Origin: Patescibacteria group bacterium
Lineage (GTDB): Bacteria > Patescibacteriota > Minisyncoccia > UBA6257 > HR35
Reading direction: 5' to 3'
DNA length: 64,000 bases
Assembly (NCBI GenBank): GCA_030549845.1
Contig: JAUQQN010000001.1
Location: 133,668 to 197,667, forward strand
The notes beneath the pieces are model-generated. The model was not told the DNA's origin, ran no database searches, and saw only the letters and a program-made list of their open reading frames with translations. The position numbers and the translations under genes were made by a program. Of this stretch, positions 21,182 to 61,626 are shown one piece after another. The stretch's first letter is position 1. Each line of letters starts with the position of its first letter.

Positions 21182-24100
21182 TTATTCTATCCAAATATTA
21201 ACTTTTCCAAAATTTTCATATTCGAATTCCCTTTCCAATTTAAATTTTTTAGAAACTCCAAATTTAAGGTTGCTTATATTTGTTTCTTTTTTAATTCTTA
21301 ATAGATTTTTTGAAATAATGTTTTTTAGGTTTTTAGGCAATAACATGGAAACATTTATAGGAGTTATAGGGATTAATCCTAAATCTTGTCTTAAATCTTG
21401 AATATATCTTATAAAATCATTTACTATTCCTTCTTCTTTAAGCTCTGGTGTTATTTCTTTATTAAGCCAAACATAAATAGGAGAGTCTGCAAATAAATAG
21501 TTTTCTTTATTTTTAGGCTCTCCAATTATTACTTTTTTAACATTTACTTCTTCTTTGATAAGTTCCAAATATTCTTCTTCTATTTTTTCTCCTAAATAAA
21601 CTTCTTTTAAGGGTTGCCTTACTTTTATTCCATTATTTTTTCTTAGCATCAAAATTTCTGATGTTATTTCTCTTACTTTTTTCATTTCTTTAAGTATTTC
21701 TTTTTCTTTTGTTGACAAATCTTTAGGGGGTAAAACTTTTTCTAAATGAACACTTATTTCTACCTTTTTTCTATCTTTCATTTCATTTTTTATCTCATGA
21801 TAAAGAAACTCACTAAAGAAAGGAGTTATTGGAGCAGAAATTTTTGCTATTTCAAAAAGATATTCTTCTAACTTCATCATAGCGATTTGTATTTCATTTT
21901 CATTTTTAGGTCTTTGGAACCTTCTTCTGCTCCTTCTTAGCCACCAATGAGATAAATCTTGAACTAAATTTACCAGTTCTCTACTTGCTTTTGTTGGATT
22001 GAAGTTATACAAAGATTCATAAACTATTTTATAAGCTTCTTTTAATCTCACATCAAACCATTTATCAATTATTTCTTTACTTTGATAATTTCTAATTTTT
22101 AATTTCTTTGGTTTTCTGTACATTCTATAAAAGTTAAAAATATTCAAAAGCAGATCAAAGTAATTTCTCTTTAGGTTTATAAGCTCTTCTTCTATGAATC
22201 TTTTATTATCAGCAGATTCACTTACATAAACAAAGTAAAACCTTAAAAGATCAGCTCCGTATTTTTCGATGGCCTCCATAGGATCTACAACGTTTCCCAA
22301 TGACTTGGACATTTTTCTTCCCTCCTTATCTAAAACTAAGCCCAAAGAGACTACATTTTTGTAAGTTTCCATTTTCTTTATCAAATACCCTATAACTAAC
22401 AAAGTATAAAACCAACCCCTTGTTTGATCTATTCCTTCCACAATAAAATCTATAGGGAATAAAATTCCTTCATCTATTTCTTTTTTATTTTCAAATGGAT
22501 AATGAAAAGATGCAAAAGGAACACACCCTGAGTCAAACCAAATATCTGCTAAGTCTTCTATTCGTTCTTTTAATCCTCCACATTTACATTTCCATTTAAA
22601 TTTATCCACATAAGGCCTATGAATATTTATTTCATTATTTTCATCTCTTGGCAAAATTAAAAGTTCAATTTCTTTATATTCCCCAGGTTCGAAGTTAAAT
22701 TCTTCATTTTCTGCTGTTTGTTTTTTAGAAAGCCCTTGCATTTCTCCACAAAGAGCCCATAAAGGATCCTGATGTGATACTATTAAGATTGTTTTTCCTT
22801 CATACTTTTCTTCCAAATCTAAAATTACTGATATCATTCTTTTTCTTACATCATCCAAACTTTCACCATTTTCTGGGGCTTTGAAATACTGATCATATTG
22901 ATCTTCATAAAGCTTATCATATTCTTTTATTGATTTACCGTTTAATACACCAAAATCTATTTCTCTTAACCTTAGATCTACAATAATCGGAACTCGTAAA
23001 ATATTAGAAAGTATTTCTGCAGTTTGCTTCGTTCTTAAAAGTGGTGAAGTTACAATAAAGTCGATATTCTTCTTCGCTAACTCTTTAGCCACCTTCATTA
23101 TTTGTTTTTCTCCATTCGAGGTCAATGGGTTAAAGAAAACTTCAGGGTAGGAAGATAGTAATTCTTTTACATTACTTATGGCTTCTCCATGCCTTAAAAG
23201 AATGTATTTATTTTTTGATTTGAAATGTTGAGCAAGCTCCTTTAAACTCCCTATAACTTCTATTGAACCACAGCTATTACATTTCCATATAGGAAGAGGT
23301 ATACCCCAAACCCTTGTTCTTGATAGATTCCAATCTTTTCCTTCCTTAAGCCATTCATAAAATCTACCACTTCCAATTTCTTTTGGATACCAATTTATTT
23401 TTTCGTTAATTTTTAATAGCTTATCTTTAAATTTAGATACTTTAATCACCCAATTTTTTGTTGAATAATAAATAAGCGGTGTTTTACATCTCCAACAATG
23501 GGGATAATCGTGTTCATATCCAGTTAAATTTGCATAGAGGATTAAATTTCTTTCTTTTAAGTCTTCAACAATATATGGATCTGCATCTTTAAAAAATAAA
23601 TTATTTATTTTACTACTAATAAAAGCTGGTTCATCAAAATTAAAAATTCCTGACTCGTTTATTGGATTTATTAGAGGAAGATTATATTTTTTACTTAATT
23701 CAAAATCCTCTTCACCAAATGCAGGAGCTATATGAACTATTCCTGTACCTTCGTCTTCTTTTACGAATTCTGCTAAATAAACTTTAAATGCATTTTCATA
23801 ATTTTCTATATTTTCTGGAGGATAAAGAGGTTCATATTCTAAACCTTCTAGTTCTTTGCCTTTTATTTTTTTAATCTCTATTCCTTTAAATCCCTGAGGA
23901 AGCCTTAAAGATATTAGAATTTCTTCATTTAAGTCAAATACTTTATATTCATACTCTGGATGTATTGCTAAAGCTATATTTGAAATTAACGTCCATGGGG
24001 TTGTTGTCCAAACTAAGAAATAAATTTGTTTTTCAGAAAATTCTTCTAAAAAGTGTGGAATGTTTTTCAACTTAAACTTAACATAAATATCAGGATCTAA

Positions 24101-24688
24101 AACTTTTTTATAAGCATCAACTTGTCCTACTTCGGCTTGAGAAAGGACGGTTTCGCATCTTGGGCAATAAGGAAAAACTTTATATTCTTCTTTTAAGTAC
24201 CCTTGATCATAAATCTTTTTAATAATCCACCAACAGGATTCCATGTAAAATGGATCATAAGTGATATAAGCATTTTTATGATCAATCCAAAATCCCATCA
24301 TTTCATCCATTTTCTCCCATTCATTTTTATATTTCATAACAAGCTCTTTACATTTTGCATTAAATTTATCAATTCCATATGAAAATATATCTTTTTTTGT
24401 TTTAAATCCTAAAAATTTTTCAGTGGCAACTTCTATAGGAAGTCCGTGCGTATCCCATCCTGCCCTTCTTTCAGCATATTCACCAATCATTGTTCTAAAT
24501 CTTAAAATAATATCTTTATAAACTCGGGTAAGAAAATGCCCGATGTGAGGTTTATCATTAGCATACGGAGGACCTTCAACAAAAACAAATCTTTTATTTT
24601 TTATATTTCTTTTTAAGCTTTCTTTAAAAATATTATTTGATTTCCAAAAATTTATTATTTTCTTTTCCAATTCACTTAGATTTAGCAT
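21182..24688 (-). CDS. ileS: isoleucine--tRNA ligase with an inserted histidine-phosphatase (PGAM-like) domain
   Basis: HIGH-region PPYANDKPHIGH, GWDTHGLPIE, WGIPLPIW, WFDSG, KMSKS (RKMSKSLGNVVDP). A ~195-aa insertion (aa ~495-690) carries LLRHGEAISN and VSHQD motifs of the histidine phosphatase superfamily; it sits between CNSCGS and CKCGG. 1168 aa. Confidence 0.85.
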   Translation of the reverse strand: MLNLSELEKKIINFWKSNNIFKESLKRNIKNKRFVFVEGPPYANDKPHIGHFLTRVYKDIILRFRTMIGEYAERRAGWDTHGLPIEVATEKFLGFKTKKDIFSYGIDKFNAKCKELVMKYKNEWEKMDEMMGFWIDHKNAYITYDPFYMESCWWIIKKIYDQGYLKEEYKVFPYCPRCETVLSQAEVGQVDAYKKVLDPDIYVKFKLKNIPHFLEEFSEKQIYFLVWTTTPWTLISNIALAIHPEYEYKVFDLNEEILISLRLPQGFKGIEIKKIKGKELEGLEYEPLYPPENIENYENAFKVYLAEFVKEDEGTGIVHIAPAFGEEDFELSKKYNLPLINPINESGIFNFDEPAFISSKINNLFFKDADPYIVEDLKERNLILYANLTGYEHDYPHCWRCKTPLIYYSTKNWVIKVSKFKDKLLKINEKINWYPKEIGSGRFYEWLKEGKDWNLSRTRVWGIPLPIWKCNSCGSIEVIGSLKELAQHFKSKNKYILLRHGEAISNVKELLSSYPEVFFNPLTSNGEKQIMKVAKELAKKNIDFIVTSPLLRTKQTAEILSNILRVPIIVDLRLREIDFGVLNGKSIKEYDKLYEDQYDQYFKAPENGESLDDVRKRMISVILDLEEKYEGKTILIVSHQDPLWALCGEMQGLSKKQTAENEEFNFEPGEYKEIELLILPRDENNEINIHRPYVDKFKWKCKCGGLKERIEDLADIWFDSGCVPFASFHYPFENKKEIDEGILFPIDFIVEGIDQTRGWFYTLLVIGYLIKKMETYKNVVSLGLVLDKEGRKMSKSLGNVVDPMEAIEKYGADLLRFYFVYVSESADNKRFIEEELINLKRNYFDLLLNIFNFYRMYRKPKKLKIRNYQSKEIIDKWFDVRLKEAYKIVYESLYNFNPTKASRELVNLVQDLSHWWLRRSRRRFQRPKNENEIQIAMMKLEEYLFEIAKISAPITPFFSEFLYHEIKNEMKDRKKVEISVHLEKVLPPKDLSTKEKEILKEMKKVREITSEILMLRKNNGIKVRQPLKEVYLGEKIEEEYLELIKEEVNVKKVIIGEPKNKENYLFADSPIYVWLNKEITPELKEEGIVNDFIRYIQDLRQDLGLIPITPINVSMLLPKNLKNIISKNLLRIKKETNISNLKFGVSKKFKLEREFEYENFGKVNIWIE

Positions 24689-26372: not shown

Positions 26373-27581
26373 ATGAATAAAAAAGCGCAAATAGAAGACA
26401 TCCTCTTATTTTTTGCTTTGGTAATAATAATATTTTCTGCTTTTATATATTATTTTTATTTTAAAACAGGAAAGGTACCAGTCTTAAAACCAAGAAAAGA
26501 AATAAAGCCCGCTGAAAAAAGCGTAATTCCTCCTGGTATTTTTTTCCCTAAAAAAGAGAAGGTTCCCTTTTTAAATATTAAGAAAGTTTCCGAAGCAAGT
26601 GTTTTTAAAATCAATTTAGGAACCACTACAAAACCAAATAAAAATCTAGAAACTTCAATAAAACATAAATATAAAAACTTAAATAATTTAGAAACTAATG
26701 AAGTTGAGTTTGAATTAGAGGGTAAAAATTTAAAAAATCCTAATGAAAAAATCCATTTTGCTTATTTATTAATACCTATTGAAAATAACTGGAAGGTTCT
26801 AAAATCCAATAAATTAAAAATAATCCTTCCTAAAAAACCACAAATTTACATTCTTTTAGTGAGTTCTTTAAATGAAAAAAATGAATATGACCCCAGTCCT
26901 TATGCTCTTATTTTTTCTGTGAATGTTTCTAAATATTTTAATGATATTAAAATTACGTCTCTTCAAAATAGAAACATTATAAGAATCAAAAATTTTTCGC
27001 AAAATACTATTAACATAACAAATTGGAAAATAGTGTCTTCATTAGGAAATTTTGTGATACCACAAGGAGTTGAATTTGTTGAACCTTCTGGTAATTATAT
27101 AAAAAAAGATATCATATTAAATCCTGGCGAGGAAGCAAAAATTATAGCATCATCTTCTCCATTAGGTTTTAGTTTTAAAATTAACAAGTGCTTTGCTTAT
27201 TTTTTAAAATCAAAGCCGTCAATTAAAAAATTTCTAGATAACATCCCAAATATTTGCGACAAATTCTCAAAAGAAGAGCTTTTAGAATTAAGAAAAGGAA
27301 AGTATAGCTTAAATTGCATTTTAGTTCTGGAAAAAGCTGGATGCACTGGTATACAAGAAAAAGATTATACTCTAATAAAAAATGATATATCCTGTTTGAA
27401 TTTAATAAATGCCAGATTTAATTACCAAAGTTGCTATGAAAAAAATAAAAATAATATTGATTTCATTCAAAAAAATTGGCATATATTTATCCCCACAAAT
27501 TTCTTTTACTATCCAAGGTATGAAGAAATTAGGTTATTGGATGAGAATGGTCTTTTAGTTAATAAATATATTATTTATTGA
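26373..27581 (+). CDS. hypothetical membrane-anchored extracytoplasmic protein
   Basis: N-terminal TM (ILLFFALVIIIFSAFIYYFYF), 402 aa, several Cys in the C-terminal half, no motif. Confidence 0.4.
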   Translation: MNKKAQIEDILLFFALVIIIFSAFIYYFYFKTGKVPVLKPRKEIKPAEKSVIPPGIFFPKKEKVPFLNIKKVSEASVFKINLGTTTKPNKNLETSIKHKYKNLNNLETNEVEFELEGKNLKNPNEKIHFAYLLIPIENNWKVLKSNKLKIILPKKPQIYILLVSSLNEKNEYDPSPYALIFSVNVSKYFNDIKITSLQNRNIIRIKNFSQNTINITNWKIVSSLGNFVIPQGVEFVEPSGNYIKKDIILNPGEEAKIIASSSPLGFSFKINKCFAYFLKSKPSIKKFLDNIPNICDKFSKEELLELRKGKYSLNCILVLEKAGCTGIQEKDYTLIKNDISCLNLINARFNYQSCYEKNKNNIDFIQKNWHIFIPTNFFYYPRYEEIRLLDENGLLVNKYIIY

Positions 27582-32337: not shown

Positions 32338-32601
32338 TTATGGAAACTTAGGAACTTCTTTTACCTCTAAAAATGAAAGTATGATAACAGGAATAGTATA
32401 AGAAGTTATGAGGATAATTAGGCCTAATAAAATCCAAGGTAAAAATTTCTTTGCCTCATCTAGCTTTTTGTGATATATTGCTAAAACCCCTAAATAAATA
32501 AAAGAAGCAGATGAACCTAAAATTATCAAAACTTGCATTATTTTTATGATCCTTAAAAGAATTATTCTTATCTCATCCATATTATTTAAAAGAAGGTACA
32601 A
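32338..32601 (-). CDS. small two-helix membrane protein, pilin-like hairpin module family (VirB2/TrbC-like), paralog 6
   Basis: 87 aa, two hydrophobic helices separated by a short charged loop (HKKLDEAKK); pattern shared with five neighbouring genes. Confidence 0.45.
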   Translation of the reverse strand: MYLLLNNMDEIRIILLRIIKIMQVLIILGSSASFIYLGVLAIYHKKLDEAKKFLPWILLGLIILITSYTIPVIILSFLEVKEVPKFP

Positions 32602-32839
32602 ATGTTTGTATTGTTTTTAAAATTATTTCTTTATTTAGAAATACTAAACTTATTAAAATTAATCCCAATATTATATAAATTAATGCTTTTTTAACTTCAC
32701 CAAAGTTTTTCGATGAAAAATATGTCTTTATACCTAAATAAATTATAAAAAAACTAGAAATAAGTAGAGCGAACTTTAATAAAAAATTGGTTAAATTTTC
32801 CAAAATAGAGAGAATTTTATCCAAAAATGGAAAATACAT
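32582..32839 (-). CDS. small two-helix membrane protein, pilin-like hairpin module family, paralog 5
   Basis: 85 aa; FALLISSFFIIYLGIKTYFSSKNFGEVKKALIYIILGLILISLVF; same module. Confidence 0.45.
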   Translation of the reverse strand: MYFPFLDKILSILENLTNFLLKFALLISSFFIIYLGIKTYFSSKNFGEVKKALIYIILGLILISLVFLNKEIILKTIQTFVPSFK

Positions 32840-33123
32840 TACTTAAAGAAAGAAATTAGGATAGCTTGAATAGAAAAGGATGCGATTATTAACACTAATC
32901 CTACAATAATTAGTGGAACTTCTTCTTTAAATCCTTTCCCTGGATTTACCATATATTTAAAGCCAGAATACATTAAAATACCTATACCACTTACCATTCC
33001 TATCCAATAAAAAATATTAATTACTCCAATGAGTTTACAAATAAAATAATTTATGCCTTCTTGCTGAGCACAACCTATTTCCCCTCTAAACCTAATTGCT
33101 TGGGCAAAAACTAAGCTTATCAT
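32839..33123 (-). CDS. small two-helix membrane protein, pilin-like hairpin module family, paralog 4
   Basis: 94 aa; ...GCAQQEG...IFYWIGMVSGIGILMYSGFKYMVNPGKGFKEEVPLIIVGLVLIIASFSIQAIL. Confidence 0.45.
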   Translation of the reverse strand: MISLVFAQAIRFRGEIGCAQQEGINYFICKLIGVINIFYWIGMVSGIGILMYSGFKYMVNPGKGFKEEVPLIIVGLVLIIASFSIQAILISFFK

Positions 33124-34772
33124 AAACCTAATATTTGCTTAATGATATTCCAACCACTACCTCCAGGTGTATAAATTTTCCCTGTTTCTATATCGAAGAC
33201 TTGACTAAACGGCTTATCTGGAAATTCTGAATTTGTAATTTCAACTTCACATTGGCCTTTATAATCATAAAATTGAATATATAAAAATCCTAATGTATTA
33301 CCTGGAGGAGAAATATATTTAGGAACTCTATATAGAGATTTTCCCTTTTCATAACTCAAGGTTATTTGGAAATCTCTGTTAAACAGGTATAAAGAAGTTG
33401 CCTTTGTTTTATCAAAATTAAAACTTGAAACACTTGTTCCCCTCATAACCCCATATAATGTACAATTCCCATTTTTTTTAGGAGTAGGTTGAACTTCATA
33501 TTCTATATACATTGAAAAAGGAGGTTGATATATATTCCTTTGCAAAACTGTGATTCCTAATAACTGCTCTAAAGCATCTTTCAAGTTATCGGGCATTTCT
33601 ACCCTTATATATTGAGAAGCATAAATTATAAGTTTGTCTCCTTTTATTGTTAATTTTGGTAGCTCCTCAACAACAACTTCAACTTTTGGTCGATATTGAA
33701 TATCAAGATAGGTAATATTCAAATTACAGTTATTTGATTGGAATGCAACTCTTACAAAATCACCTGGCTCAATATGGTTCCCTAGCTCAGCTTCTATATA
33801 TTGGGAACCAAAAATATTAGGTTCTATTTTTGAAAACAAATTTTTACCTTTTGTTTTATTGTAAAAAGTAAGCGTTAATTCACATGTATCCTTAGAAGAA
33901 ACAAAAACAAAAAATCTTCCATTTTCATCTATTTTTGCAGTATTTGTATCTATTATTAGAGTACCAGAAGCAGTGCCACTAGGTAAAATAGATTGAGTAG
34001 TATCTGGAATGGGTTGAGTAATATCTGGAATAGGTTGAGCAGTGTCTGTAGTAATTGGACCTAGTTCAGAAGGTGGTTGTAATGCTAAACCACCTGTTAA
34101 CCATCTTTCTACTCCAATAACAATCGTAAATGAAACAATTCCTACTACAATACCTATTATCCCCCATTGGACTCTTTTATGAACATCACTAACTTGGCTA
34201 GGTTTTGTAATATATAAAATGCCAGCCCACATTAAAAACAAAACCCCTAAAGCTAGAGATAAGGTATATAATATCCTTAAGCCTTTATCAAAAAGAAACA
34301 ACAAACATTGACCAATTCCTCTTTCGCATTCACGAATAGTAGGAAATCCTCTTAGATATTCTGATGGAGCTATATATAATTTTTCCAGCTGACCATTTTC
34401 TATTTGTACATTCAATACTTTAAATCCTCGGTATTGTTGTAAACTAGGAGGTGGATCTATTAAAATTAATTCTGCTGCCTCTATTATTAAGTTACTCCAA
34501 TTTCCGTAAGTCTCTCTAACTGCATCATTGACATTTATGTTAGGATCTGTACTTTCAATGCTATTACCTCTAACCTCGAATGTTCCTTCACCATATCTAT
34601 TATTCAAAAGCTCAGCCATTTTTTCTCTTATCAAACGCCTTAAACCTTCATCTACATTTATTCCCTGCACTGTCTTTATGCCCCATTGAAAAGGATTAAA
34701 ATATTGAGTAACTTGAGCAAAAGTGATATTACTGAATATTAGCAAAATAACTAAAAGTAAAATTTTTTTCAT
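33120..34772 (-). CDS. secreted 550-aa protein with embedded pilin-like hairpin module (aa ~165-225) and QPIPD(I/T)TQ tandem repeat
   Basis: Signal peptide MKKILLLVILLIFSNITFA; internal segment GIGQCLLFLFDKGLRILYTLSLALGVLFLMWAGILYITKPSQVSDVHKRVQWGIIGIVVGIVSFTIVIG matches the paralog module; 21-nt tandem DNA repeat at 33999..34040. Confidence 0.45.
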   Translation of the reverse strand: MKKILLLVILLIFSNITFAQVTQYFNPFQWGIKTVQGINVDEGLRRLIREKMAELLNNRYGEGTFEVRGNSIESTDPNINVNDAVRETYGNWSNLIIEAAELILIDPPPSLQQYRGFKVLNVQIENGQLEKLYIAPSEYLRGFPTIRECERGIGQCLLFLFDKGLRILYTLSLALGVLFLMWAGILYITKPSQVSDVHKRVQWGIIGIVVGIVSFTIVIGVERWLTGGLALQPPSELGPITTDTAQPIPDITQPIPDTTQSILPSGTASGTLIIDTNTAKIDENGRFFVFVSSKDTCELTLTFYNKTKGKNLFSKIEPNIFGSQYIEAELGNHIEPGDFVRVAFQSNNCNLNITYLDIQYRPKVEVVVEELPKLTIKGDKLIIYASQYIRVEMPDNLKDALEQLLGITVLQRNIYQPPFSMYIEYEVQPTPKKNGNCTLYGVMRGTSVSSFNFDKTKATSLYLFNRDFQITLSYEKGKSLYRVPKYISPPGNTLGFLYIQFYDYKGQCEVEITNSEFPDKPFSQVFDIETGKIYTPGGSGWNIIKQILGL

Positions 34773-34773
34773 T

Positions 34774-35427
34774 TTAATGAGTTAAACTAAATTCAATTGC
34801 TTTAACAATTGAAAAAGCAGCAACTGTAAAAATTGCTCCGATTATTGCCCAAGTAATATAATTCCAACCTTCTCTATCGCCTGGTTTTAAATATAACTTC
34901 ATTCCTCCATAAATTATAAAACCTATTGCTGAAAGCATAGATACAGTATACAGAACTGTTAAAATTTTAGTAATAAACCAAAGAAAGCATCTTCCTAATA
35001 AGCCAGGTGGGGTAGGTTTTCCTCCTAAGATATCAAAAATATTTATTCCTGTGCAATTAATTCTCGGAGGTTGAAAACTTAATTGTTGAGCATAAGCTAT
35101 ATTAAATATAAAATCTATTCTCCAATTAGAGACCGTATATTCAATAAGTTTAACTAATCCCCAAGAAATTAAAGCTAAAGCTAAACCTAAAGAAGCCCAA
35201 ATTAATCTATTCTTTACATCTTGTTGTGCTTTTTGGGCTTGAACTATAAGAATTATTCCTGCCCACATAATCATAATTACAGCCAATGCACCAGAAAGCC
35301 ATGTCAAAATTTTTAATGCAACATAAAAAACTAATAAAGCACAAGAAGTTAAATCTTGGCAAATAACTGGAACAGGAAAAATTCTATTGCTAAATATCCC
35401 AAAATCTGGATTAAATGGATAAGGCAT
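34774..35427 (-). CDS. membrane protein with two tandem copies of the pilin-like hairpin module
   Basis: 217 aa; module a: ...TSCALLVFYVALKILTWLSGALAVIMIMWAGIILIVQAQKAQQDVKNRLIWASLGLALALISWGLVKLIEY; module b: ...GRCFLWFITKILTVLYTVSMLSAIGFIIYGGMKLYL...WNYITWAIIGAIFTVAAFSIVKAIEF. Confidence 0.45.
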   Translation of the reverse strand: MPYPFNPDFGIFSNRIFPVPVICQDLTSCALLVFYVALKILTWLSGALAVIMIMWAGIILIVQAQKAQQDVKNRLIWASLGLALALISWGLVKLIEYTVSNWRIDFIFNIAYAQQLSFQPPRINCTGINIFDILGGKPTPPGLLGRCFLWFITKILTVLYTVSMLSAIGFIIYGGMKLYLKPGDREGWNYITWAIIGAIFTVAAFSIVKAIEFSLTH

Positions 35428-35447: not shown

Positions 35448-35828
35448 TTAAAATCCAGGCTGTCCTGTAACTACAAGATTTTCTACAAACTTAACTACAG
35501 CCCAAGCAAGTAATGCTATAGCCAAACCAGCTGCTCCGTATATCAACCTATTTTTACCTTCATCAATTTTTGCTTGGATTATAACTTGTATTCCTCCCCA
35601 AATTATGTATATAACTGCAAAAGCACCTGCTGCCCACATTAGAATTCTTAAAACCCATGTAAAGACTTGTAAAAGAACTTCACCTAGAGTTCTTCCTTGT
35701 AAAAAACCAGATTCTGGTGGTAGTTCGCGTATAGGCCATTCTCCTCCTTGCCCATAAACTAAGCCAAGGTTTCCTAAAAATAAGATTAATAGTAAAATTG
35801 CACTTAATCTAAGGGTTTTTTTACTCAT
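35448..35828 (-). CDS. signal-peptide-bearing pilin-like protein (VirB2/TrbC-like), first gene of the cluster
   Basis: 126 aa; signal MSKKTLRLSAILLLILFLGNLGLVYG|QGG, then LQVFTWVLRILMWAAGAFAVIYIIWGGIQVIIQAKIDEGKNRLIYGAAGLAIALLAWAVVKFVENL; AGTTATCCACAA motif 78 nt upstream. Confidence 0.5.
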   Translation of the reverse strand: MSKKTLRLSAILLLILFLGNLGLVYGQGGEWPIRELPPESGFLQGRTLGEVLLQVFTWVLRILMWAAGAFAVIYIIWGGIQVIIQAKIDEGKNRLIYGAAGLAIALLAWAVVKFVENLVVTGQPGF

Positions 35829-53384: not shown

Positions 53385-54635
53385 ATGAAAATAGAAGAGT
53401 TAAAAAACAGAATAGAATTTGAAATACAAAAACCTATTTCTGAAATTTCTATTATAAATTTAGTTCAAGATTTGATAAGTTATTGTTACAAAGCAAGAGC
53501 TTCAGATATACACATAGAACCCCAGGAAAATCAATTATTAATAAAAGCAAGAATTGATGGTATTATCCATGAACTTTTTACCTTTCCTAAAGAAATTCAA
53601 GATGAAATAATCTCACGAATAAAAATATTATCAGGCCTTAGAACAGATGAACACTACACACCACAAGATGGACGTTTTAAGTTTTTTGACTCCTATTCAA
53701 ACTCAGAATTTGATATACGGGTTTCTATTATGCCTACATATTTTGGAGAGAATGCTGTTTTAAGATTATTAGTATCAAAAGAGACATCTTTTACCTTAGA
53801 AACTCTTGGCTTTTCTGAAAGGGATTTAAAAGAAGTTAAAAAAGCTATTAAAAAACCTTATGGTATGATACTTGTAACGGGACCTACTGGCTCTGGTAAA
53901 ACTACTACTTTATATACGATATTAAAAACTTTAAATACAGGAGCTGTTTCTATAATTACATTAGAAGATCCAATTGAATATTCCATACCAGGTATCACAC
54001 AAATACAAGTTAATCCTCAAGTAGGTTTAGTTTTTAGTACTGGTTTAAGAGCTATTTTAAGACAAGATCCTGATATTATCATGGTTGGTGAAATAAGAGA
54101 TGAAGAAACAGCAGATATTGCTGTCAATGCTGCCTTAACTGGACATTTACTTTTGTCAACTTTACATACAAATGACGCAGCAACTGCTTTACCAAGACTC
54201 TTAGAAATGGGAGTGGAACCTTTTTTAATTGCTTCTACGGTAAATATAGTTATAGGACAAAGATTAGTACGAAAAATTTGTGAAAACTGTAAACAAGAAA
54301 GAAAATTCACAACAACAGAAATATTATCATTTTTAGAAACTATTGGATTAGATCTTACGTTAGAAAATATTAAAGAAATTAAAAAACAAAAGTTTTATAT
54401 AGGAAAAGGATGTGAATTATGTAATAATACTGGATATTATGGAAGATTAGGGATATTCGAGGTATTGCCTATCACTGATAAAATAAGAACAGCTATCATG
54501 AAAAGGTCAGATAGCAATGAAATAAAGTCTATTGCTGTTTCTGAGGGTATGAAAACAATGATTCAAGACGGTTTTGATAAAGTAGTAAAAGGTCTTACAA
54601 CTATAGAAGAAATTCTAAGAGTTATTCATGAATAA
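53385..54635 (+). CDS. pilB: type IV pilus assembly ATPase PilB/GspE family (with tetracysteine Zn finger)
   Basis: Walker A GPTGSGKTTTLYT, Asp box, His box, CENC...CELC zinc finger typical of PilB/GspE rather than PilT; 416 aa. Confidence 0.8.
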   Translation: MKIEELKNRIEFEIQKPISEISIINLVQDLISYCYKARASDIHIEPQENQLLIKARIDGIIHELFTFPKEIQDEIISRIKILSGLRTDEHYTPQDGRFKFFDSYSNSEFDIRVSIMPTYFGENAVLRLLVSKETSFTLETLGFSERDLKEVKKAIKKPYGMILVTGPTGSGKTTTLYTILKTLNTGAVSIITLEDPIEYSIPGITQIQVNPQVGLVFSTGLRAILRQDPDIIMVGEIRDEETADIAVNAALTGHLLLSTLHTNDAATALPRLLEMGVEPFLIASTVNIVIGQRLVRKICENCKQERKFTTTEILSFLETIGLDLTLENIKEIKKQKFYIGKGCELCNNTGYYGRLGIFEVLPITDKIRTAIMKRSDSNEIKSIAVSEGMKTMIQDGFDKVVKGLTTIEEILRVIHE

Positions 54636-55692
54636 AAAACCTTTTTTTCTAAGAATTTCTTTAAATGAGAAAATACTATTTGTTAGAAATTTATCGATGC
54701 TGTTAAAAAGCGGTATTAGCATTGTTGAAGCCTTAGAGATTTTAAAAAATAACACAAAATCTAAAACTTTAATTTATATTCTAAACGAAACTATTTCAGA
54801 TGTTCAAAGAGGGCAATTTTTATCAAATAGTTTAAATAAATTTAAAAATGTATTTGGTGAGTTTTTTGTAAATATAATTAGGGTAGGAGAGCTTACGGGG
54901 AAGCTCCCCGAAAATCTAGACAAATTAGCTGATGAGTTAGCACAAATAGGAGCTTTGAAAAGAAAAATTATTACTACCATGATTTACCCAACTTTCATAA
55001 TAACAACAATGGTAGTTTTAGTAATTTTCGTTTTGTATTTTGTTTTTCCTAAAATATTACCTATCTTCGAAAATCTAGGAGTAGAATTGCCTCTTACTAC
55101 TAAAATTTTTATAAAGGTTTCTTATTTTTTAATAAACAATACAACTGAGCTGATAATTTTTTTAATTATATTTATTTTATCATTTTTTATTGCCTTAAGA
55201 TTTCCTAAGTCAAAATTTTATATTGATTTATTTTTATTAAATCTACCATTGCTTTCGGATGTAATTAAAAAATATATTCTTGCTGAATTTTCTAGGATAT
55301 TAAGCTTATTATTAGGAAGTGGGCTTAAAATAGTAGAAAGCATAGAAATTGCTGGAAATGCTTTAACTAATAATGTATATAAAAAAATTTTAATAGATGT
55401 TTCATCAAATGTTTTATCGGGCTATCCTTTAAATGAGTCTTTAGAAAAATTTCCAAAATTATTTCCTTATAATTTTGTAAAGATGATTGAAATTGGCGAA
55501 AGAACAGGAAATCTAGAAAAAAATTTAAGATACTTATCCCAAAACTTTGAGGAGGATGTAGACACATTTTTAGAAAGATTTATAAATATATTAGAGCCTT
55601 TAATATTAGTAATTATCGCAGCAACAATTGGTTTTATGGCAATTTCTATTATACTACCAATATATGAATTATCAGAAAAAATCCAACCTTAG
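54628..55692 (+). CDS. pilC: type IV pilus platform protein PilC/GspF family
   Basis: T2SSF-domain polytopic membrane protein; translationally coupled to pilB (8-nt overlap); 354 aa. Confidence 0.75.
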   Translation: MNKKPFFLRISLNEKILFVRNLSMLLKSGISIVEALEILKNNTKSKTLIYILNETISDVQRGQFLSNSLNKFKNVFGEFFVNIIRVGELTGKLPENLDKLADELAQIGALKRKIITTMIYPTFIITTMVVLVIFVLYFVFPKILPIFENLGVELPLTTKIFIKVSYFLINNTTELIIFLIIFILSFFIALRFPKSKFYIDLFLLNLPLLSDVIKKYILAEFSRILSLLLGSGLKIVESIEIAGNALTNNVYKKILIDVSSNVLSGYPLNESLEKFPKLFPYNFVKMIEIGERTGNLEKNLRYLSQNFEEDVDTFLERFINILEPLILVIIAATIGFMAISIILPIYELSEKIQP

Positions 55693-57424
55693 TTTTACGT
55701 TTTTAGAAATTTTAATAACCATTGTTTTTATAGTGCTTTTAGGGTATTTTATATACGGAGCTTTTATAAATTTTTTAAAAATGACAACATCTTTAAGGCT
55801 TACACTTCAGGCTTTAAATATTTTAGAAAGTGAATTAGAAATAATAAGAAATATGAAGTATGAAGACATTGGTATAAAAGATGGCTATCCAAGAGGTAAA
55901 CTTGAAAGAAAAAAATATATAAGTTTAGGCAACTTAAACTTTGTGGTTTCTTATTATATAAGAAATATAGATGATCCTTTTGATGGCACGGTTACTTCAA
56001 CTCCTCAAGATTTAGCTCCTGCTGATTATAAGCTGGTTGAACTAGAAATAGAATGCCTCAATTGTGGGGTCAAATTTAAACCTCAAAAATTAACAACCTT
56101 AGTAGCGCCTAAAAATTTGGAAGTGACTACAAACAATGGATCTTTATTTATTAAAGCGATAAACTCAAAAGGTGAACCTATACCACAGGCTAAGGTTATT
56201 GTATTAAATAAGCAAATAAATCCACCTATTTTAATTGAAGATTATACAAATAATGATGGCATTTTACCATTAATAGATATACCTACAGGAACTAATGCTT
56301 ATGAAATTACAATTAATAAAGATGGATATTCAACAGAAAAAACTTATACTCCAGGTGATCCAGAAAACCCCAACCCTCTCAACCCTCATGCAACCGTAAA
56401 AGAGCAAACTTTAACCGTAGTTACATTAGCTATAGATAAGTTAAGTAATTTGAGAATAAATACAAAAGATAAATTCTGCAGACCCATAGGAAATATTAAT
56501 TTAAGAGTCAGTGGAACAAAATTAATTGGTAAAAATCCTGATGTTATAAAATTTTCAACCACTACTTCTACAAATATTGATGGCACAAAATTTTTACAAA
56601 ATATAGAATGGGATGAATATAATTTTTCTATCTTAAGCAATGGATACATATTAAGAGGCAGCAACCCTATTTGGCCCCTAGTTGTTCTTCCAAGTACTAC
56701 TAAAGATGTTGATTTAATTTTAATACCAAAAGAAACCACCTCTTCTAATTTATTAATAGAAGTGATTGATTCAAATAGATTACCTATTAAATTTGCATCA
56801 GTTACCTTATCTAGTGGTAACTATAGTTCAACATTAATTACAAATACAGAAGAGTATTATGAAAATAACTGGTTAGAAAATTATTCTCAAAAATCAGAAA
56901 ATATAGAAATTGATAGTAATGGTTATATAAAATTAAAATATTTGACAGATGGTTATCCAACTAATACACAAGAGTGGTTAATATCTAATACTATTGATTT
57001 TGGATCAAGAACTGATTTATTAAAAATAAACTGGGATGGAGATGAAGCTTCACAAACAGACATAAAATTACAAATTGCAGTAAATAATGATAACTCTACT
57101 TGGAATTTTATAGGACCAGATGGCACCTCAAATTCATATTTTGAAGAAAAAGAAATTTCCAGTCTTTCTTTATTTACAAATTTTAGGTATTTAAGATATA
57201 AAGTTTATTTACAAACTTTTGATCCTCAACAAACGCCTATTTTTAAATACATCAATTTCCAGTTTTCTTCGGATTGTTTACCGCCTGGTCAGGTTTTATT
57301 TAAAAATTTAAATATAGCTACATATCAATTAAAAGTAGAAAAGGAAGGCTATCAAACATTTTTATCAAATATAGATTTATTAGAAAGTTTTAAACAAATT
57401 ATTGTAAACCTCAGCCCGCAATGA
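55664..57424 (+). CDS. large prepilin-like protein (class III signal-like N-terminus SNLS|FTFLEIL; ~587 aa)
   Basis: ATG at 55664 (the ORF track starts at TTG 55628); FTFLEILITIVFIV matches the prepilin N-terminal methylation/helix motif; overlaps the pilC 3' end by 29 nt. Confidence 0.5.
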   Translation: MNYQKKSNLSFTFLEILITIVFIVLLGYFIYGAFINFLKMTTSLRLTLQALNILESELEIIRNMKYEDIGIKDGYPRGKLERKKYISLGNLNFVVSYYIRNIDDPFDGTVTSTPQDLAPADYKLVELEIECLNCGVKFKPQKLTTLVAPKNLEVTTNNGSLFIKAINSKGEPIPQAKVIVLNKQINPPILIEDYTNNDGILPLIDIPTGTNAYEITINKDGYSTEKTYTPGDPENPNPLNPHATVKEQTLTVVTLAIDKLSNLRINTKDKFCRPIGNINLRVSGTKLIGKNPDVIKFSTTTSTNIDGTKFLQNIEWDEYNFSILSNGYILRGSNPIWPLVVLPSTTKDVDLILIPKETTSSNLLIEVIDSNRLPIKFASVTLSSGNYSSTLITNTEEYYENNWLENYSQKSENIEIDSNGYIKLKYLTDGYPTNTQEWLISNTIDFGSRTDLLKINWDGDEASQTDIKLQIAVNNDNSTWNFIGPDGTSNSYFEEKEISSLSLFTNFRYLRYKVYLQTFDPQQTPIFKYINFQFSSDCLPPGQVLFKNLNIATYQLKVEKEGYQTFLSNIDLLESFKQIIVNLSPQ

Positions 57425-59127
57425 AGTTAAAAAAGTTTTTTTTAATTTTTTTTATTTTAATACTTCCGATTTTTTGCAAAGCTGAAAAAGTTTTTGAGTA
57501 TTTTTCTCATTCTCCGCGAACTACTAATAAGCTAGATTTAAATTTAGTAGAAGAAATTAAGCAAGAAATAAAAATATTTGATGATAATCTAAGTAAAATT
57601 TATCTTTGGATAGATAACCCGGGTACAGCTAATGAAGTGAATATTCAACTTTTTGAAGAAGACCATTTATTATTCAGTAAGACCATCAATATTCCCCAGG
57701 TAAAAGGAGGTTATTTTGGTTATAAGTTTGGAATAGATTTAGGAAAGAATTTAAAAATAGAAAGCGGAAAAAATTATCATTTATCAATAAAAAATTTAAC
57801 CAAAGATGAAATGTATATCTACTATACAAGCAAGATAGAGATTTTACAAGGAGAAGAAAAAGAAGGCATTTTACCAATCTCCTTAGGTAAATTTTTGATA
57901 AATGGAAAAGAGTATGCTTATTCTTTGAAAATAGCGCTTGCTGAATCTTTGGAACAAGATGTGCCTAAATTATTTAATCCACAAATAGAAATTGAAAGTC
58001 CTTATAAAGTTTATCTTTTATTCAATTCAAACGAACCGATAAAATATAAAGTTATCTATTGGGATGTGAATAGAAATGAAACTTATTTAATCCCTTCAAA
58101 TCCTTATTTAGAAAATTGTTTTATAGAAACGAAAAAATGTAAAATAAGTATTTATACGAATCATAACACTTATTATAAATTCCAAATTTCTATAATAGAT
58201 TATTGGGGCAATTTCAAAACTTATGAAGGGGAATTTGTAACCCCCTTAGATCCTACTATTTCTACTTCAACAATTTCTACTTCAACAATAAAAATTAATG
58301 ATACATTACCCCCTCAAATTTCTAATTTTCAAATAAAAGAAATAACTTCCAATAATATAATAGTCTCTTTTGAAACAAATGAATTTGCACTTAGTTCTCT
58401 TAAAATTTTTTATAAAGATACAGGTGTTATAGTGATGGAAATAAGAAATAGTATGTTTAATTTATATCATGAAATAAGCGCATTGAATTTACTTTTCCCT
58501 AACTTAGAATACGAAGGAGTAGTTTATGTAGAAGACATATTTAAAAATAAAAATGAATATAAATTTAGCTTCAAAACTAAAGAAGGTAAAACTTCTCAAT
58601 CTTTAGATAAATTTTTATCTCAACCTAAAATTTTAGAAATTAATGTAATAAATGAAGGAATTGAATCTAGCTTAAAAACCCCAGATATTGAAATTAATTA
58701 CGACCAAAATTTAAATAAAATGAATATCAAAACAGATTCCAATAATTTAAAAATTAATTTCATTAAAAGACCAGAGGTTTCTATTTTTAGTTATTCTATC
58801 AAAGAAGGAAGTTATGATTTGGATTTAAATATTTTCTCTCCTGGGGTTTATAATTACCTAGCTTATCAAGAGCTCCGGCCTAACATAAAACAAATTCTAA
58901 AATCTGGTGAAATTGAAATAAAAAGCAAAGAAATTAAGGAAATTTCTTCGGAAAAAATAGAAACAAAAAATAATACAGAAATTAAAATAAAAGAGGGTTC
59001 TCCAAAAATAATTCAACCTTTGCCTGCTTCAGAATCTGTTTCATCTCATAAAAAAATTATTTCAATTATCGGAATAATTGTGATTTTAAGTTTGTTATTA
59101 ATCTTATTTTTGATAAAAAGAAAATGA
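57421..59127 (+). CDS. cell-surface protein with signal peptide and C-terminal TM anchor, ISTST tandem repeat
   Basis: MKLKKFFLIFFILILPIFCKA signal; C-terminal IISIIGIIVILSLLLILFLIKRK; 15-nt tandem DNA repeat near 58258..58290. Confidence 0.4.
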   Translation: MKLKKFFLIFFILILPIFCKAEKVFEYFSHSPRTTNKLDLNLVEEIKQEIKIFDDNLSKIYLWIDNPGTANEVNIQLFEEDHLLFSKTINIPQVKGGYFGYKFGIDLGKNLKIESGKNYHLSIKNLTKDEMYIYYTSKIEILQGEEKEGILPISLGKFLINGKEYAYSLKIALAESLEQDVPKLFNPQIEIESPYKVYLLFNSNEPIKYKVIYWDVNRNETYLIPSNPYLENCFIETKKCKISIYTNHNTYYKFQISIIDYWGNFKTYEGEFVTPLDPTISTSTISTSTIKINDTLPPQISNFQIKEITSNNIIVSFETNEFALSSLKIFYKDTGVIVMEIRNSMFNLYHEISALNLLFPNLEYEGVVYVEDIFKNKNEYKFSFKTKEGKTSQSLDKFLSQPKILEINVINEGIESSLKTPDIEINYDQNLNKMNIKTDSNNLKINFIKRPEVSIFSYSIKEGSYDLDLNIFSPGVYNYLAYQELRPNIKQILKSGEIEIKSKEIKEISSEKIETKNNTEIKIKEGSPKIIQPLPASESVSSHKKIISIIGIIVILSLLLILFLIKRK

Positions 59128-59690
59128 GGGCTTTTACTTTGATGGAAACATTAATAGCCATTTTTATTATTTCTGCTTTAATTGGATTAATAATTCTTTT
59201 TGTATTAAACTTGGTAAATTTTAATGTATTTTTTGTTTTAAACATAGGTGGCACAAGAGAAATTGATATTACCCTAAATAATATGATCAAGGAGCTGCGT
59301 AGTATGAATCAATCTAATACAGGAGGGTATCCTATTGAAAGCGCAGATGAAACTAGTATAATATTCTACACCGATATAGATGGAGATGGGGTTATGGAAA
59401 GACTGAGGTATTTTTTAGAAAATAATCAAGTAAAAAGAGGTATAACGAGATTTGAAAATGGAACATATGATTCAAATAAAGAAAAGATTTGGCTTATGAT
59501 TAATAATGTAAATAAATTTAAGATAACCTATTATGACGCTAATTATACGGGAACAGAAGTTCCCTTAACTTTTCCTGTAGATATTTCAAAAATTAGGACA
59601 ATTCGGATTGATGTTTCTTTAAAGTTTTTAAACAAACCAGAAATTAATTATTATATAATAGCAACACCAAGAAATTTAAGAGGAAAATGA
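59124..59690 (+). CDS. pseudopilin / minor type IV pilin
   Basis: MRA|FTLMETLIAIFIISALIGL prepilin-type N-terminus; 188 aa. Confidence 0.6.
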   Translation: MRAFTLMETLIAIFIISALIGLIILFVLNLVNFNVFFVLNIGGTREIDITLNNMIKELRSMNQSNTGGYPIESADETSIIFYTDIDGDGVMERLRYFLENNQVKRGITRFENGTYDSNKEKIWLMINNVNKFKITYYDANYTGTEVPLTFPVDISKIRTIRIDVSLKFLNKPEINYYIIATPRNLRGK

Positions 59691-61078: not shown

Positions 61079-61088
61079 TTATCCACTA
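61077..61088 (+). promoter_or_regulatory. AGTTATCCACTA element, copy 4 of 4 (one mismatch to the other three)
   Basis: Lies 89 nt upstream of the pilA ATG, in the same relative orientation as copies 1-3. Confidence 0.4.
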
Positions 61089-61176
61089 TTTTTGGTTTTT
61101 CTAAAAAAATACTATATTATAATTAAATATTAAATTAACTTGGTCGAAATTAAGTTTTAAAAATTAAAAATACATA

Positions 61177-61626
61177 ATGAAAACCAAAAAGGCTTTTACC
61201 TTAATTGAGGTTTTGCTTGTTATAGGTATAATAATTTTGCTTGCAGGAGCAATAATAGTAGCTGTAAACCCTGGTCGACAATTTGCTAAAGCAAGAAACA
61301 CACAAAGAAAAACAGATACAACTGCTATTTTGAATGCAATTGTTCAGAATATGGTTGATAATCAAGGAGCTTGGAAATGTGACGCTGTACCGGAATTACC
61401 ATCTTCTACAACTTTAATTGCTACTCCAGGAGGAGTTGACCTAGCTTCTTGTTTGGTTCCTACTTATCTTCCAAGAATGCCTTTAGACCCACAAAGAGGA
61501 ACGATTAATACAACTACAGGCGAATATAATACTCAATATAACATAAGATATGATCCAGCTTCTGGTAGATTAGAGGTTTGTGCTCCTTATGCAGAACTTG
61601 GTGAAACTATTTGTACATCTAAATAA
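61177..61626 (+). CDS. pilA: type IV major pilin (PilA-like)
   Basis: MKTKKA|FTLIEVLLVIGIIILLAGAIIVAV class III signal with Glu+5; C-terminal Cys residues; 149 aa. Confidence 0.7.
   Translation: MKTKKAFTLIEVLLVIGIIILLAGAIIVAVNPGRQFAKARNTQRKTDTTAILNAIVQNMVDNQGAWKCDAVPELPSSTTLIATPGGVDLASCLVPTYLPRMPLDPQRGTINTTTGEYNTQYNIRYDPASGRLEVCAPYAELGETICTSK

What the first reader, a model, noticed from the sequence alone, without database searches (positions are those of the whole stretch)
33120..34772. 550-aa secreted protein with embedded pilin-like hairpin and QPIPD(I/T)TQ tandem repeat, a candidate tip or adhesin subunit
A signal peptide and a ~160-aa N-terminal domain precede the hairpin module at aa ~165-225 (nt ~34098..34280). 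Directly after it sits a Pro/Thr-rich linker with a perfect tandem repeat TAQPIPDITQPIPDTTQS, encoded by a 21-nt DNA tandem repeat at 33999..34040. A ~290-aa C-terminal domain follows. A pilin-like membrane hairpin fused to large extracellular domains is what a filament-tip adhesin or a filament-anchored surface protein would look like. The repeat is a potential slipped-strand variable site.
Basis: seen in the sequence. Interest (0 to 1): 0.55.

Follow-up and report, generated by a model that had tools for sequence, protein, structure and literature searches.

The report
Pilin-fused surface protein in a pilin operon
This is a real 550-residue exported protein of an ultrasmall (Patescibacteria) bacterium in which a conjugative-pilus-type (VirB2-like) membrane hairpin is fused to outward-facing domains, making it a candidate host-contact subunit of a secretion-system pilus for which no adhesin is known.

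Summary
ORF 33120..34772(-) encodes 550 aa: signal peptide, ~125-aa N-domain, Cys loop, two-helix hairpin (aa 161-228), Pro/Thr linker with a 21-nt tandem repeat, then two beta-sandwich domains rather than one C-terminal domain.

The hairpin is homologous to the neighbouring small proteins (hhalign 98.5-99%), which are Pfam T4SS_pilin/VirB2-like pilins. It is the best conserved part of the protein.

The gene is third in a six-gene pilin operon: single pilin, tandem double pilin, this large fusion, three mini-pilins. Order and position-by-position orthology persist in relatives whose large subunit is only 23-34% identical. The six are therefore fixed, distinct subunits, not interchangeable variants.

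The outward domains match only generic Ig/FN3-like folds and each carries an invariant Cys pair.

The repeat is imperfect, in frame, and constant across all six close assemblies that cover it. It is not a demonstrated slipped-strand switch, although the linker varies widely between orthologues.

Best reading (about 0.45): a low-copy, pilus- or assembly-integrated display or adhesin subunit. The main rival is a hairpin-anchored wall-spanning surface protein. No VirB4/VirB6 lies in the window, and polymerisation is untested.

Patescibacterial pilin arrays are known; this fused member appears undescribed. I rate it a new variant of a known kind.

The parts
33120..34772 (-). g3: the 550-aa pilin-fusion protein (the finding)
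   Evidence: ORF. It belongs to a family of 14 proteins at 43-52% identity, and about 17 clusters at 50% identity in a library of 1.84 billion representatives.
34716..34772 (-). Signal peptide, aa 1-19, with predicted cleavage at TFA|Q
   Evidence: The sequence shows MKK, a hydrophobic core, and small residues at -3/-1. Orthologues have AFS|Q. This is an inference; no predictor was run.
34668..34703 (-). Conserved motif at the mature N-terminus, YFNPFQWGIKTV (aa 24-35)
   Evidence: Mean pairwise identity is 0.95, the highest of any region. The NPFx[FY]GI[KR] motif is retained in distant family members.
34338..34667 (-). N-terminal alpha/beta domain, aa 36-145; found only in this clade
   Evidence: AF2 pLDDT is 80-88 for aa 40-135. 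The domain is absent from distant family members P0023-P0033. No fold assignment was obtained.
34293..34337 (-). Cys loop CERGIGQC (C149, C156) just before helix 1
   Evidence: Both Cys are nearly invariant in the family. An equivalent Cys pair precedes each hairpin of g2.
34089..34292 (-). VirB2/T4SS_pilin-like helical hairpin, aa 161-228
   Evidence: Pfam PF18895 matches at 19.3 bits. hhalign gives 98.5-99% against the g1 and g2 families. Mean pairwise identity is 0.87 against 0.46-0.75 for the domains.
33972..34088 (-). Disordered Pro/Thr-rich linker, aa 229-267
   Evidence: pLDDT is below 35. Composition is given. This is the most variable region; in orthologues it is replaced by a short Gly-rich linker or an extra ~100-aa Cys-pair module.
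33987..34048 (-). 21-nt imperfect tandem repeat encoding (T)AQPIPDI-TQPIPDT-TQS
   Evidence: TRF score 89, 3.0 copies, 82% matches. Copy number is constant in close strains.
33693..33971 (-). Ig/FN3-like beta-sandwich domain, aa 268-360, with invariant C297 and C349
33183..33692 (-). Family-specific C-terminal beta domain, aa 361-530, with invariant C437 and C508 and the motifs RN-Y-PPF and DIETG
   Evidence: AF2 pLDDT is mostly 86-96, with dips to 57-79 around aa 392-411 and 452-461. Foldseek matches only tandem-sandwich proteins. In the library this domain occurs almost only joined to the hairpin.
35448..35828 (-). g1: 126-aa pilin with a signal peptide
   Evidence: PF18895 E 1.5e-8, 35 bits, above the gathering score. 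It is orthologous position-by-position in the related loci L001, L008, L010; against L009 the best hit is g2.
34774..35427 (-). g2: 217-aa tandem double pilin (two hairpins)
   Evidence: PF18895 E 4.8e-12 with two matched stretches. Alignment. Sub-threshold hit to NCBIfam NF045849, a pilin-like conjugal transfer protein.
32839..33123 (-). g4: 94-aa mini-pilin; its start overlaps the g3 stop codon (ATGA)
   Evidence: Two TM helices. It aligns with the other modules. Orthologues in L009 and L010 carry weak PF18895/TrbC hits.
32582..32839 (-). g5: 85-aa mini-pilin
   Evidence: Pfam TrbC/VirB2 E 1.4e-5 and PF18895 E 8e-4.
32338..32601 (-). g6: mini-pilin, 87 aa from a TTG start; more probably 80 aa from the ATG at 32580
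   Evidence: Two TM helices. Called as 80 aa in two other assemblies. Orthologues in L001 and L009.

Best explanation
g3 is the bulky, specialised member of a fixed six-subunit set of VirB2-like (T4SS_pilin) proteins in a Paceibacteria-type Patescibacterium.

Inferred steps:
1. It is exported by Sec and its leader is cut at A19|Q20.
2. The two-helix hairpin sits in the membrane with its basic loop in the cytoplasm.
3. The N-domain lies outside the membrane. The linker and two disulfide-stabilised beta-sandwich domains also lie outside.
4. The hairpin packs against the hairpins of the five neighbouring pilin-like proteins, in the membrane pool and then in the pilus or stub that the cell's type IV secretion system is thought to build.
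5. Conjugative pilins expose both termini on the filament surface. The N-domain would therefore be carried on the outside, and the C-terminal sandwiches would be carried there on a flexible Pro/Thr tether.
6. Because of its size it would be a low-copy subunit, most simply the first (tip) layer.
7. It would then act as the host-contact or adhesin element. This follows the logic of two-domain pilus adhesins, and the role VirB5 plays in Gram-negative systems.

Shown here: the domain anatomy, homology of the hairpin to the pilins, operon conservation and orthology, and the fold class of the outer domains.

Inferred only: topology, incorporation into a filament, position at a tip, and binding.
For: - The hairpin is homologous to bona fide T4SS_pilin neighbours.
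- The hairpin, Cys loop and N-terminal motif are the best conserved parts: 0.86-0.95 mean pairwise identity against 0.59-0.75 for the outer domains. Among close strains 1.2% of sites in the Cys loop plus hairpin vary, against 5-7.5% in the sandwiches. This is the opposite of what a passive membrane anchor would show.
- The gene order g1-g2-g3-g4-g5-g6 is the same in L001, L009, L008 and L010. Best hits are nearly all position-by-position, even where g3 is only 23-34% identical.
- Hairpins in this family are also joined covalently, two or four per chain (g2; P0087 and P0107 have four PF18895 stretches). This fits side-by-side packing in an oligomer.
- There are three invariant Cys pairs, one per extracytoplasmic segment.
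- The outer domains are Ig/FN3-like, as in adhesin stalks.
- In the F pilus both pilin termini face outward and the loop faces the lumen (PMC5018250).
- A six-gene VirB2-like pilin array is essential in a cultured Saccharibacterium. VirB4 is present in 2,417 of 3,035 Patescibacteria, and no T4SS adhesin has been found in the phylum (PMC10633639, PMC12102498, PMC12857230).
Against: - No pilus of this type has been seen in any Patescibacterium. The literature calls it a possibility.
- No VirB4, VirB6 or VirD4 gene lies in the 64-kb window or within +-10 kb of four related loci. Whether this genome has a T4SS at all could not be checked.
- The number of sandwich modules (1-3) and the linker length vary between orthologues. 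That is what one expects of a stalk that must span a cell wall from the membrane.
- The N-domain adjoins helix 1 with no tether and would have to be accommodated at the filament surface.
- The fold matches are generic and show no binding site.
- The hairpin is modelled at only pLDDT 55-64 in the monomer.
Confidence: 0.45

Rival explanations
1. The protein is a hairpin-anchored surface protein that never leaves the membrane. The pilin-like hairpin serves as a two-helix anchor, possibly within a membrane complex with the other five proteins. The linker and sandwich modules form a stalk that reaches through the cell wall to display the C-terminal domain on the cell surface.
For: - Linker length and sandwich number vary (1-3 modules), as in wall-spanning stalks of monoderm adhesins.
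- Other T4SS_pilin hairpins carry unrelated passengers. P0128 has Big_2 x2 plus an esterase, and P0116 has a Peptidase_C39-like domain. This suggests a general anchoring role.
- No T4SS machinery genes lie nearby.
Against: - The hairpin is the most conserved part of the protein, which is unusual for a mere anchor.
- The protein is locked into a conserved operon of pilin paralogues with fixed order.
- Tandem two- and four-hairpin chains argue for ordered hairpin-hairpin packing.
Confidence: 0.3
2. The protein is an assembly initiator or cap without an adhesin role. It would nucleate or terminate polymerisation of the small pilins, a VirB5- or minor-pilin-like structural role. Its outer domains would act as a plug, a length or gate regulator, or a wall-penetrating element rather than a ligand binder.
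For: - One bulky subunit sits among five small ones in fixed order, with translational coupling to g4 through an ATGA overlap.
- The C-terminal domain is well conserved (0.75), with invariant motifs, rather than hypervariable as many adhesin tips are.
Against: - At strain level the sandwich and C-terminal domains vary most.
- Ig/FN3-like domains on flexible tethers are more typical of binding or display.
- Nothing tested here separates this reading from the adhesin reading.
Confidence: 0.12
3. The repeat is a slipped-strand contingency site that varies linker length or expression between cells.
For: - It is a tandem 21-nt repeat and the top TRF score in the window.
- It lies in the region that differs most between orthologues.
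Against: - There are only two full copies, which differ at 2-3 of 21 nt.
- The unit is a multiple of 3, so no frameshift switch is possible.
- Copy number is identical in all six close assemblies that cover it (three identical contigs plus P0015, P0017 and P0018). Only an I-to-V substitution is seen.
- The repeat is absent from all orthologues.
Confidence: 0.03

Closest known systems
VirB2/TrbC/TraA conjugative pilins (Pfam PF04956) and the patescibacterial T4SS_pilin family (PF18895)
   Same: Both have a two-helix hydrophobic hairpin with a short basic loop, an N-terminal leader, and conserved small residues (Gly) in both helices. Homology to neighbours that pass the Pfam threshold is clear.
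   Different: Canonical pilins are about 70-130 aa with only short termini. This protein adds a ~125-aa N-domain and ~320 aa of linker plus two sandwich domains. On its own it scores below the Pfam gathering threshold (19.3 against 26.6 bits).
VirB2-like pilin arrays of Patescibacteria (S. epibionticum SEML1_0014-0019, essential; 441 arrays of 2-11 genes in 383 assemblies)
   Same: Both are tandem arrays of divergent VirB2-like pilins in a patescibacterial chromosome. The S. epibionticum array also has six genes.
   Different: In S. epibionticum the array members whose gene sizes or Pfam hit ranges I saw are small (SEML1_0017-0019 are 381-417 nt), and the array lies inside the T4SS gene cluster. 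Here the array is unlinked to any T4SS gene in 64 kb. It contains a tandem double pilin and a 550-aa fusion. Its members are position-by-position orthologues across distant genomes rather than a variable set. The survey paper reports no adhesin and mentions only 'a non-pilin gene' between pilins.
VirB5 (pilus-tip protein of Gram-negative T4SS)
   Same: The proposed role is the same: a low-copy tip subunit that initiates the pilus and contacts the target.
   Different: There is no sequence or fold relationship. No VirB5 family was hit in Pfam, and the outer domains here are predicted to be beta-sandwiches. VirB5 is described as helical from my own knowledge of the family, not tested here. VirB5 has no pilin hairpin, whereas this protein carries its own.
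Two-domain pilus adhesins and bulky minor pilins (FimH/PapG of chaperone-usher pili; GspK-type minor pseudopilins)
   Same: The design logic is the same: one polymerisation module fused to a display or binding domain, encoded beside a set of minor subunits. This comparison rests on established knowledge and was not tested here.
   Different: The pilin folds and assembly machines are unrelated. Here the polymerisation module is a membrane hairpin flanked on both sides by outer domains.
Surface adhesins of Gram-positive conjugation systems (for example PrgB)
   Same: Both are wall-spanning surface proteins associated with a monoderm T4SS, with Ig-like stalk domains.
   Different: PrgB-type adhesins are sortase/LPXTG anchored and have no pilin module. 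No such adhesins were detected in Patescibacteria.
Mbov_0395-family pilin-like conjugal transfer protein of Mycoplasma ICEs (NCBIfam NF045849)
   Same: The neighbour g2 gives a sub-threshold match (E 3.9e-7, 29.7 against 40 bits). This links the hairpin family to monoderm MPF-FATA-type systems.
   Different: The match is below threshold. g3 itself gives no hit.

Membership tests
T4SS_pilin (PF18895) / VirB2-like pilins | Match to the family HMM at or above the gathering score | tested here: not met
   g3 scores 19.3 bits, E 1.2e-3, against a gathering score of 26.6. The neighbours g1 (35 bits) and g2 (46.2 bits) pass.
T4SS_pilin (PF18895) / VirB2-like pilins | Homology of the hairpin to accepted members | tested here: met
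   hhalign of the g3 family against the g1 family gives 98.5%, E 1.7e-15. Against the g2 family it gives 99.0%, E 4.3e-18. Both alignments cover aa ~141-228.
T4SS_pilin (PF18895) / VirB2-like pilins | Leader peptide plus a two-helix hairpin with a basic loop (N-out/C-out topology) | tested here: met
   Hydropathy and charge analysis. Conserved Cys pairs lie on both outer sides. The topology is inferred from sequence and has not been measured.
T4SS_pilin (PF18895) / VirB2-like pilins | Genomic association with T4SS machinery (VirB4, VirB6, VirB3) | tested here: not met
   None is present in the 64-kb window or within +-10 kb in L001, L008, L009 and L010. The rest of the genome could not be read. 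In the literature 813 of 1,948 assemblies likewise have pilins away from virB4.
T4SS_pilin (PF18895) / VirB2-like pilins | Polymerises into an extracellular pilus | not testable with these tools
   This has not been demonstrated for any patescibacterial member.
VirB5 tip-protein family | Sequence or fold similarity to VirB5/TraC | tested here: not met
   There are no Pfam, NCBIfam or PDB sequence hits. The predicted outer domains are beta-sandwiches.
Ig/FN3-like beta-sandwich superfold | Structural match to the sandwich fold | tested here: met
Slipped-strand (contingency) repeat locus | Near-perfect repeats whose copy number differs between close strains | tested here: not met
   The copies are 18-19/21 identical. 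Copy number is the same in all six close assemblies that cover the linker.

The most novel reading that the evidence does not exclude
Paceibacteria-type Patescibacteria build a hetero-oligomeric VirB2-type pilus from six fixed, non-interchangeable subunits. Its tip layer would be made of a pilin that carries its own adhesin, so that polymerisation module and binding domains share one chain. This would replace the missing VirB5 or PrgB. More broadly, the T4SS_pilin hairpin would be a general 'pilus-display' anchor that also presents enzymes (esterase and peptidase fusions) to the host cell surface.
Probability: 0.25. Interest if true: 0.75.

Novelty: new variant of a known kind. Interest (0 to 1): 0.5.

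Why it matters
In the one cultured Saccharibacterium that has been tested (S. epibionticum), the T4SS and its pilin array are essential for its host-dependent (epibiotic) growth. Nobody yet knows whether a pilus is made or how it would engage the host, and a phylum-wide survey found no adhesin.

A pilin with built-in outward domains, locked into a conserved six-subunit operon, offers three things:
- a concrete candidate for the host-contact element;
- a natural handle (exposed domains) for antibodies or tags to ask whether a pilus exists;
- evidence that at least some 'pilin arrays' are fixed multi-subunit sets rather than antigenic-variation cassettes.

The limits are substantial. The lineage is uncultured, the family is small (about 17 clusters at 50% identity), and the key steps are inferred rather than shown.

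Tried and rejected
- Sequence searches against the PDB and NCBIfam found nothing for g3.
- I tried to read beyond the window to look for VirB4. Two edge proteins were not on record, and the other two sat on short contigs that add nothing.
- The MAG accessions of relatives were not found in the supplements of the survey paper.
- An apparent frameshift splitting the orthologue in L004 is a scaffold gap, a run of N with duplicated flanks. It is not phase variation.
- The cumulative GC-skew minimum at about 35-36 kb, next to the operon, looked like a replication origin. However, skew simply tracks gene strand throughout the window, so I dropped the idea.
- The promoter/terminator scan was at or below shuffle expectation.
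Full report
**What is there.** The ORF at 33120..34772 on the minus strand is real and encodes 550 aa. The window is a low-GC (26-32%) chromosomal stretch full of housekeeping genes: FtsH, GatA, PBP2, MreBC, ClpP, GyrB, IleRS, NusA, TsaD, PGK and GAPDH. The closest named relatives are Patescibacteria MAGs, for example Candidatus Paceibacter sp..

**Anatomy of the protein.** Read from the sequence and two AlphaFold2 models, it has these parts:
- A signal peptide, aa 1-19, with predicted cleavage at TFA|Q.
- A highly conserved motif at the mature N-terminus, YFNPFQWGIKTV.
- An alpha/beta N-domain, aa ~36-145, pLDDT 80-88.
- A Cys loop, CERGIGQC.
- Two hydrophobic helices, aa 167-188 and 203-221, joined by a basic loop.
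- A disordered linker, aa 229-267, with 8 Pro and 10 Ser/Thr.
- An Ig/FN3-like sandwich, aa ~270-359, pLDDT above 90.
- A second beta domain, aa ~373-527, pLDDT mostly 86-96.

**The repeat.** Tandem Repeats Finder reports 33987..34048, period 21, 3.0 copies, 82% matches, score 89. This is the best score in the whole window. The two full units differ at 2-3 of 21 nt and at 1 of 7 residues, so the repeat is not perfect.

**The hairpin is a VirB2-type pilin module.**
- Pfam T4SS_pilin (PF18895) matches aa 169-218 only below threshold: 19.3 bits against a gathering score of 26.6.
- The neighbouring 126-aa (g1) and 217-aa (g2) proteins pass the threshold at 35 and 46.2 bits. The 85-aa g5 matches TrbC/VirB2 at E 1.4e-5.
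- Profile-profile comparison of the g3 family gives 98.5% (E 1.7e-15) against g1 orthologues and 99.0% (E 4.3e-18) against g2 orthologues, over aa ~141-228.

**Topology is inferred.** It rests on a cleavable leader, an even number of TM helices, a basic inter-helix loop, and invariant Cys pairs in each of the three segments predicted to be outside (C149/C156, C297/C349, C437/C508). All of these point to both flanks being extracytoplasmic.

**Family and context.**
- Fourteen close homologues exist at 43-52% identity, none with a functional name.
- A profile search of 1.84 billion representatives found 130 hits.
- About 17 of these are large proteins that share the Cys loop, hairpin, linker, one to three Cys-pair sandwich modules and the same C-terminal domain (P0021-P0033).
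- In that library the C-terminal domain occurs almost only joined to the hairpin. The N-domain is restricted to the window's own clade.
- The gene is always third in the same operon: g1 (~125 aa, leader), g2 (tandem double pilin, 214-287 aa), g3 (large), then up to three mini-pilins of ~75-95 aa; two of the contigs end inside the array. The operon is flanked by housekeeping genes.
- An all-against-all comparison shows that best hits are nearly all position-by-position (g2-g2, g3-g3, g4-g4 and so on; exceptions are g1 against L009 and the truncated arrays). This holds between loci whose g3 share only 23-34% identity.

The six proteins are therefore ancient, distinct orthologue groups. They form a fixed subunit set, not a pool of interchangeable antigenic variants.

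**Conservation pattern.**
- Within the family, the N-terminal motif (0.95), hairpin (0.87) and Cys loop (0.86) are more conserved than the C-terminal domain (0.75), sandwich (0.67), N-domain (0.59) and linker (0.46).
- Among four strain-level variants, variable sites are 1.2% in the Cys loop plus hairpin, against 7.5% in the sandwich and 5.3% in the C-terminal domain.
- A passive anchor would be expected to show the reverse. The hairpin appears constrained by specific contacts.
- Hairpins in this family are also concatenated two per chain (g2 and many 215-290-aa proteins) and four per chain (P0087, P0107). This fits ordered side-by-side packing.

- Tandem-sandwich proteins such as the transglutaminase C-terminal barrels, arrestins, macroglobulin domains and an adhesin repeat.

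No catalytic family was hit in Pfam, NCBIfam or PDB sequences. The region between the hairpin and the first sandwich is an evolutionary hot spot. In orthologues it is a short Gly-rich linker, a Pro-rich linker, or an extra ~100-aa Cys-pair module. More distant members have two or three sandwich modules.

**The repeat as a variable site.** The QPIPD(I/T)T repeat is unique to this species-level cluster. Its copy number is the same in six close assemblies: three contigs with the identical protein, plus P0015, P0017 and P0018, which show only an I-to-V change. A 21-nt unit cannot shift the reading frame. I therefore find no support for slipped-strand variation, although no read-level data were examined.

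**How it most likely works.**
- In solved conjugative pili the inter-helix loop lines the lumen and both pilin termini lie on the outside (PMC5018250). Extensions at both ends of a VirB2-type hairpin are thus geometrically compatible with display on a filament.
- VirB2-like pilin arrays are known in Patescibacteria.
- In S. epibionticum a six-gene array inside the T4SS cluster is essential.
- VirB4 occurs in 2,417 of 3,035 genomes.
- Pilin genes lie away from virB4 in a large minority of assemblies.
- No adhesin has been detected, and the pilus itself remains a hypothesis (PMC10633639, PMC12102498, PMC12857230).

Putting these together, I think g3 is most likely a low-copy subunit whose hairpin co-assembles with the five neighbours. 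It would present its N-domain and its tethered sandwich domains outward. The most economical placement is the first (tip) layer of a T4SS-dependent pilus or stub, with a host-contact role (confidence ~0.45).

The main rival (~0.3) is that the hairpin only anchors a wall-spanning stalk in the membrane.
- For it: variable stalk length, and other T4SS_pilin hairpins that carry unrelated passengers. P0128 has Big_2 plus an esterase, and P0116 has a C39-like peptidase.
- Against it: the conservation pattern described above.

A purely structural cap or initiator role (~0.12) cannot be separated from the adhesin role with these data.

**What could not be settled.**
- Whether this genome has a T4SS. 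None is in the window or within +-10 kb of four related loci, and attempts to read past the window failed.
- Whether any of these proteins polymerise.
- What the outer domains bind.

**Novelty.** Patescibacterial pilin arrays are published. In the searchable literature I found no description of a large pilin-fusion member, of a fixed-order six-gene operon with position-wise orthology, or of tandem two- and four-hairpin pilins. The characterised S. epibionticum array members for which I saw sizes are small. I class this finding as a new variant of a known kind, of moderate interest.

Noticed in passing
window 34774..35427 (-), g2: The 217-aa protein is a tandem double pilin with two hairpins. 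Between the modules sits a conserved NIAYAQ (A113 and Q114 are invariant in 5 orthologues) that looks like a signal-peptidase AxA|Q site. Array members g1, g3 and g4 also have an A/G|Q junction. g4 starts M-ISLVFA|Q, a leader of only 7 residues. This could indicate a shared processing step that cuts g2 into two pilins.
   Followed up: partly
window 34668..34703 (g3); the N-termini of g2 (35427 end) and g5 (32839 end): An aromatic-Pro-Phe motif lies at or near the mature N-terminus in three array members: g3 QYFNPFQWGIK, g2 MPYPFNPDFGI, g5 MYFPF. In g3 it is the most conserved stretch (0.95 identity) and it is kept in distant family members. Its function is unknown.
   Followed up: partly
P0087, P0107, P0128, P0116: Elsewhere in metagenomes the T4SS_pilin hairpin occurs four times in one chain (381-382 aa). 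It also occurs fused to Big_2 plus an esterase, or to a Peptidase_C39-like domain. The hairpin is thus a reusable module for concatenation and for carrying passenger domains.
   Followed up: partly
window 21182..24688 (-): The isoleucyl-tRNA synthetase-like protein (1168 aa) has a histidine-phosphatase domain (His_Phos_1, aa 496-657, E 5.7e-39) inserted inside the class I synthetase core. The orthologue in L001/L002 has the same architecture.
   Followed up: no
window 53385..61626 (+): A separate type IV pilus (T4P) cluster lies here: a PilB-like ATPase, a PilC-like platform protein, four unannotated proteins of 598, 568, 188 and 463 aa, and a 149-aa N-methyl pilin. It is unrelated to the VirB2-like operon 18 kb away.
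   Followed up: no
window 34774..35427 (-), g2: g2 gives a sub-threshold match (E 3.9e-7, 29.7 against 40 bits) to NCBIfam NF045849, the Mbov_0395-family pilin-like conjugal transfer protein of Mycoplasma ICEs. This hints that monoderm MPF-FATA-type systems are not entirely pilin-less.
   Followed up: no
P0015, P0016, P0017: Near-identical copies of g3 are deposited in GenBank under archaeal MAGs (Pacearchaeota, Nitrososphaerota, Methanomethyliaceae), and one relative under a Caldimicrobium MAG. This is almost certainly mis-binning of patescibacterial contigs.
   Followed up: no
window 32338..32601 (-), g6: The longest ORF starts at a TTG and overlaps g5 by 20 nt. Two other assemblies call the gene from the ATG at 32580 (80 aa), which matches the orthologues' N-termini.
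   Followed up: yes
L004 10227..12355: The orthologue in the Candidatus Paceibacter MAG appears split into two ORFs. The cause is a run of N with duplicated flanking sequence, a scaffolding artefact, not a frameshift.
   Followed up: yes
window 26373..27581 (+): A 402-aa protein has a sub-threshold lamin-tail-domain (LTD) match (E 6.6e-6, 26.9 against 34.3 bits). A 404-427-aa ORF with no family on record sits at the same position in related loci.
   Followed up: no
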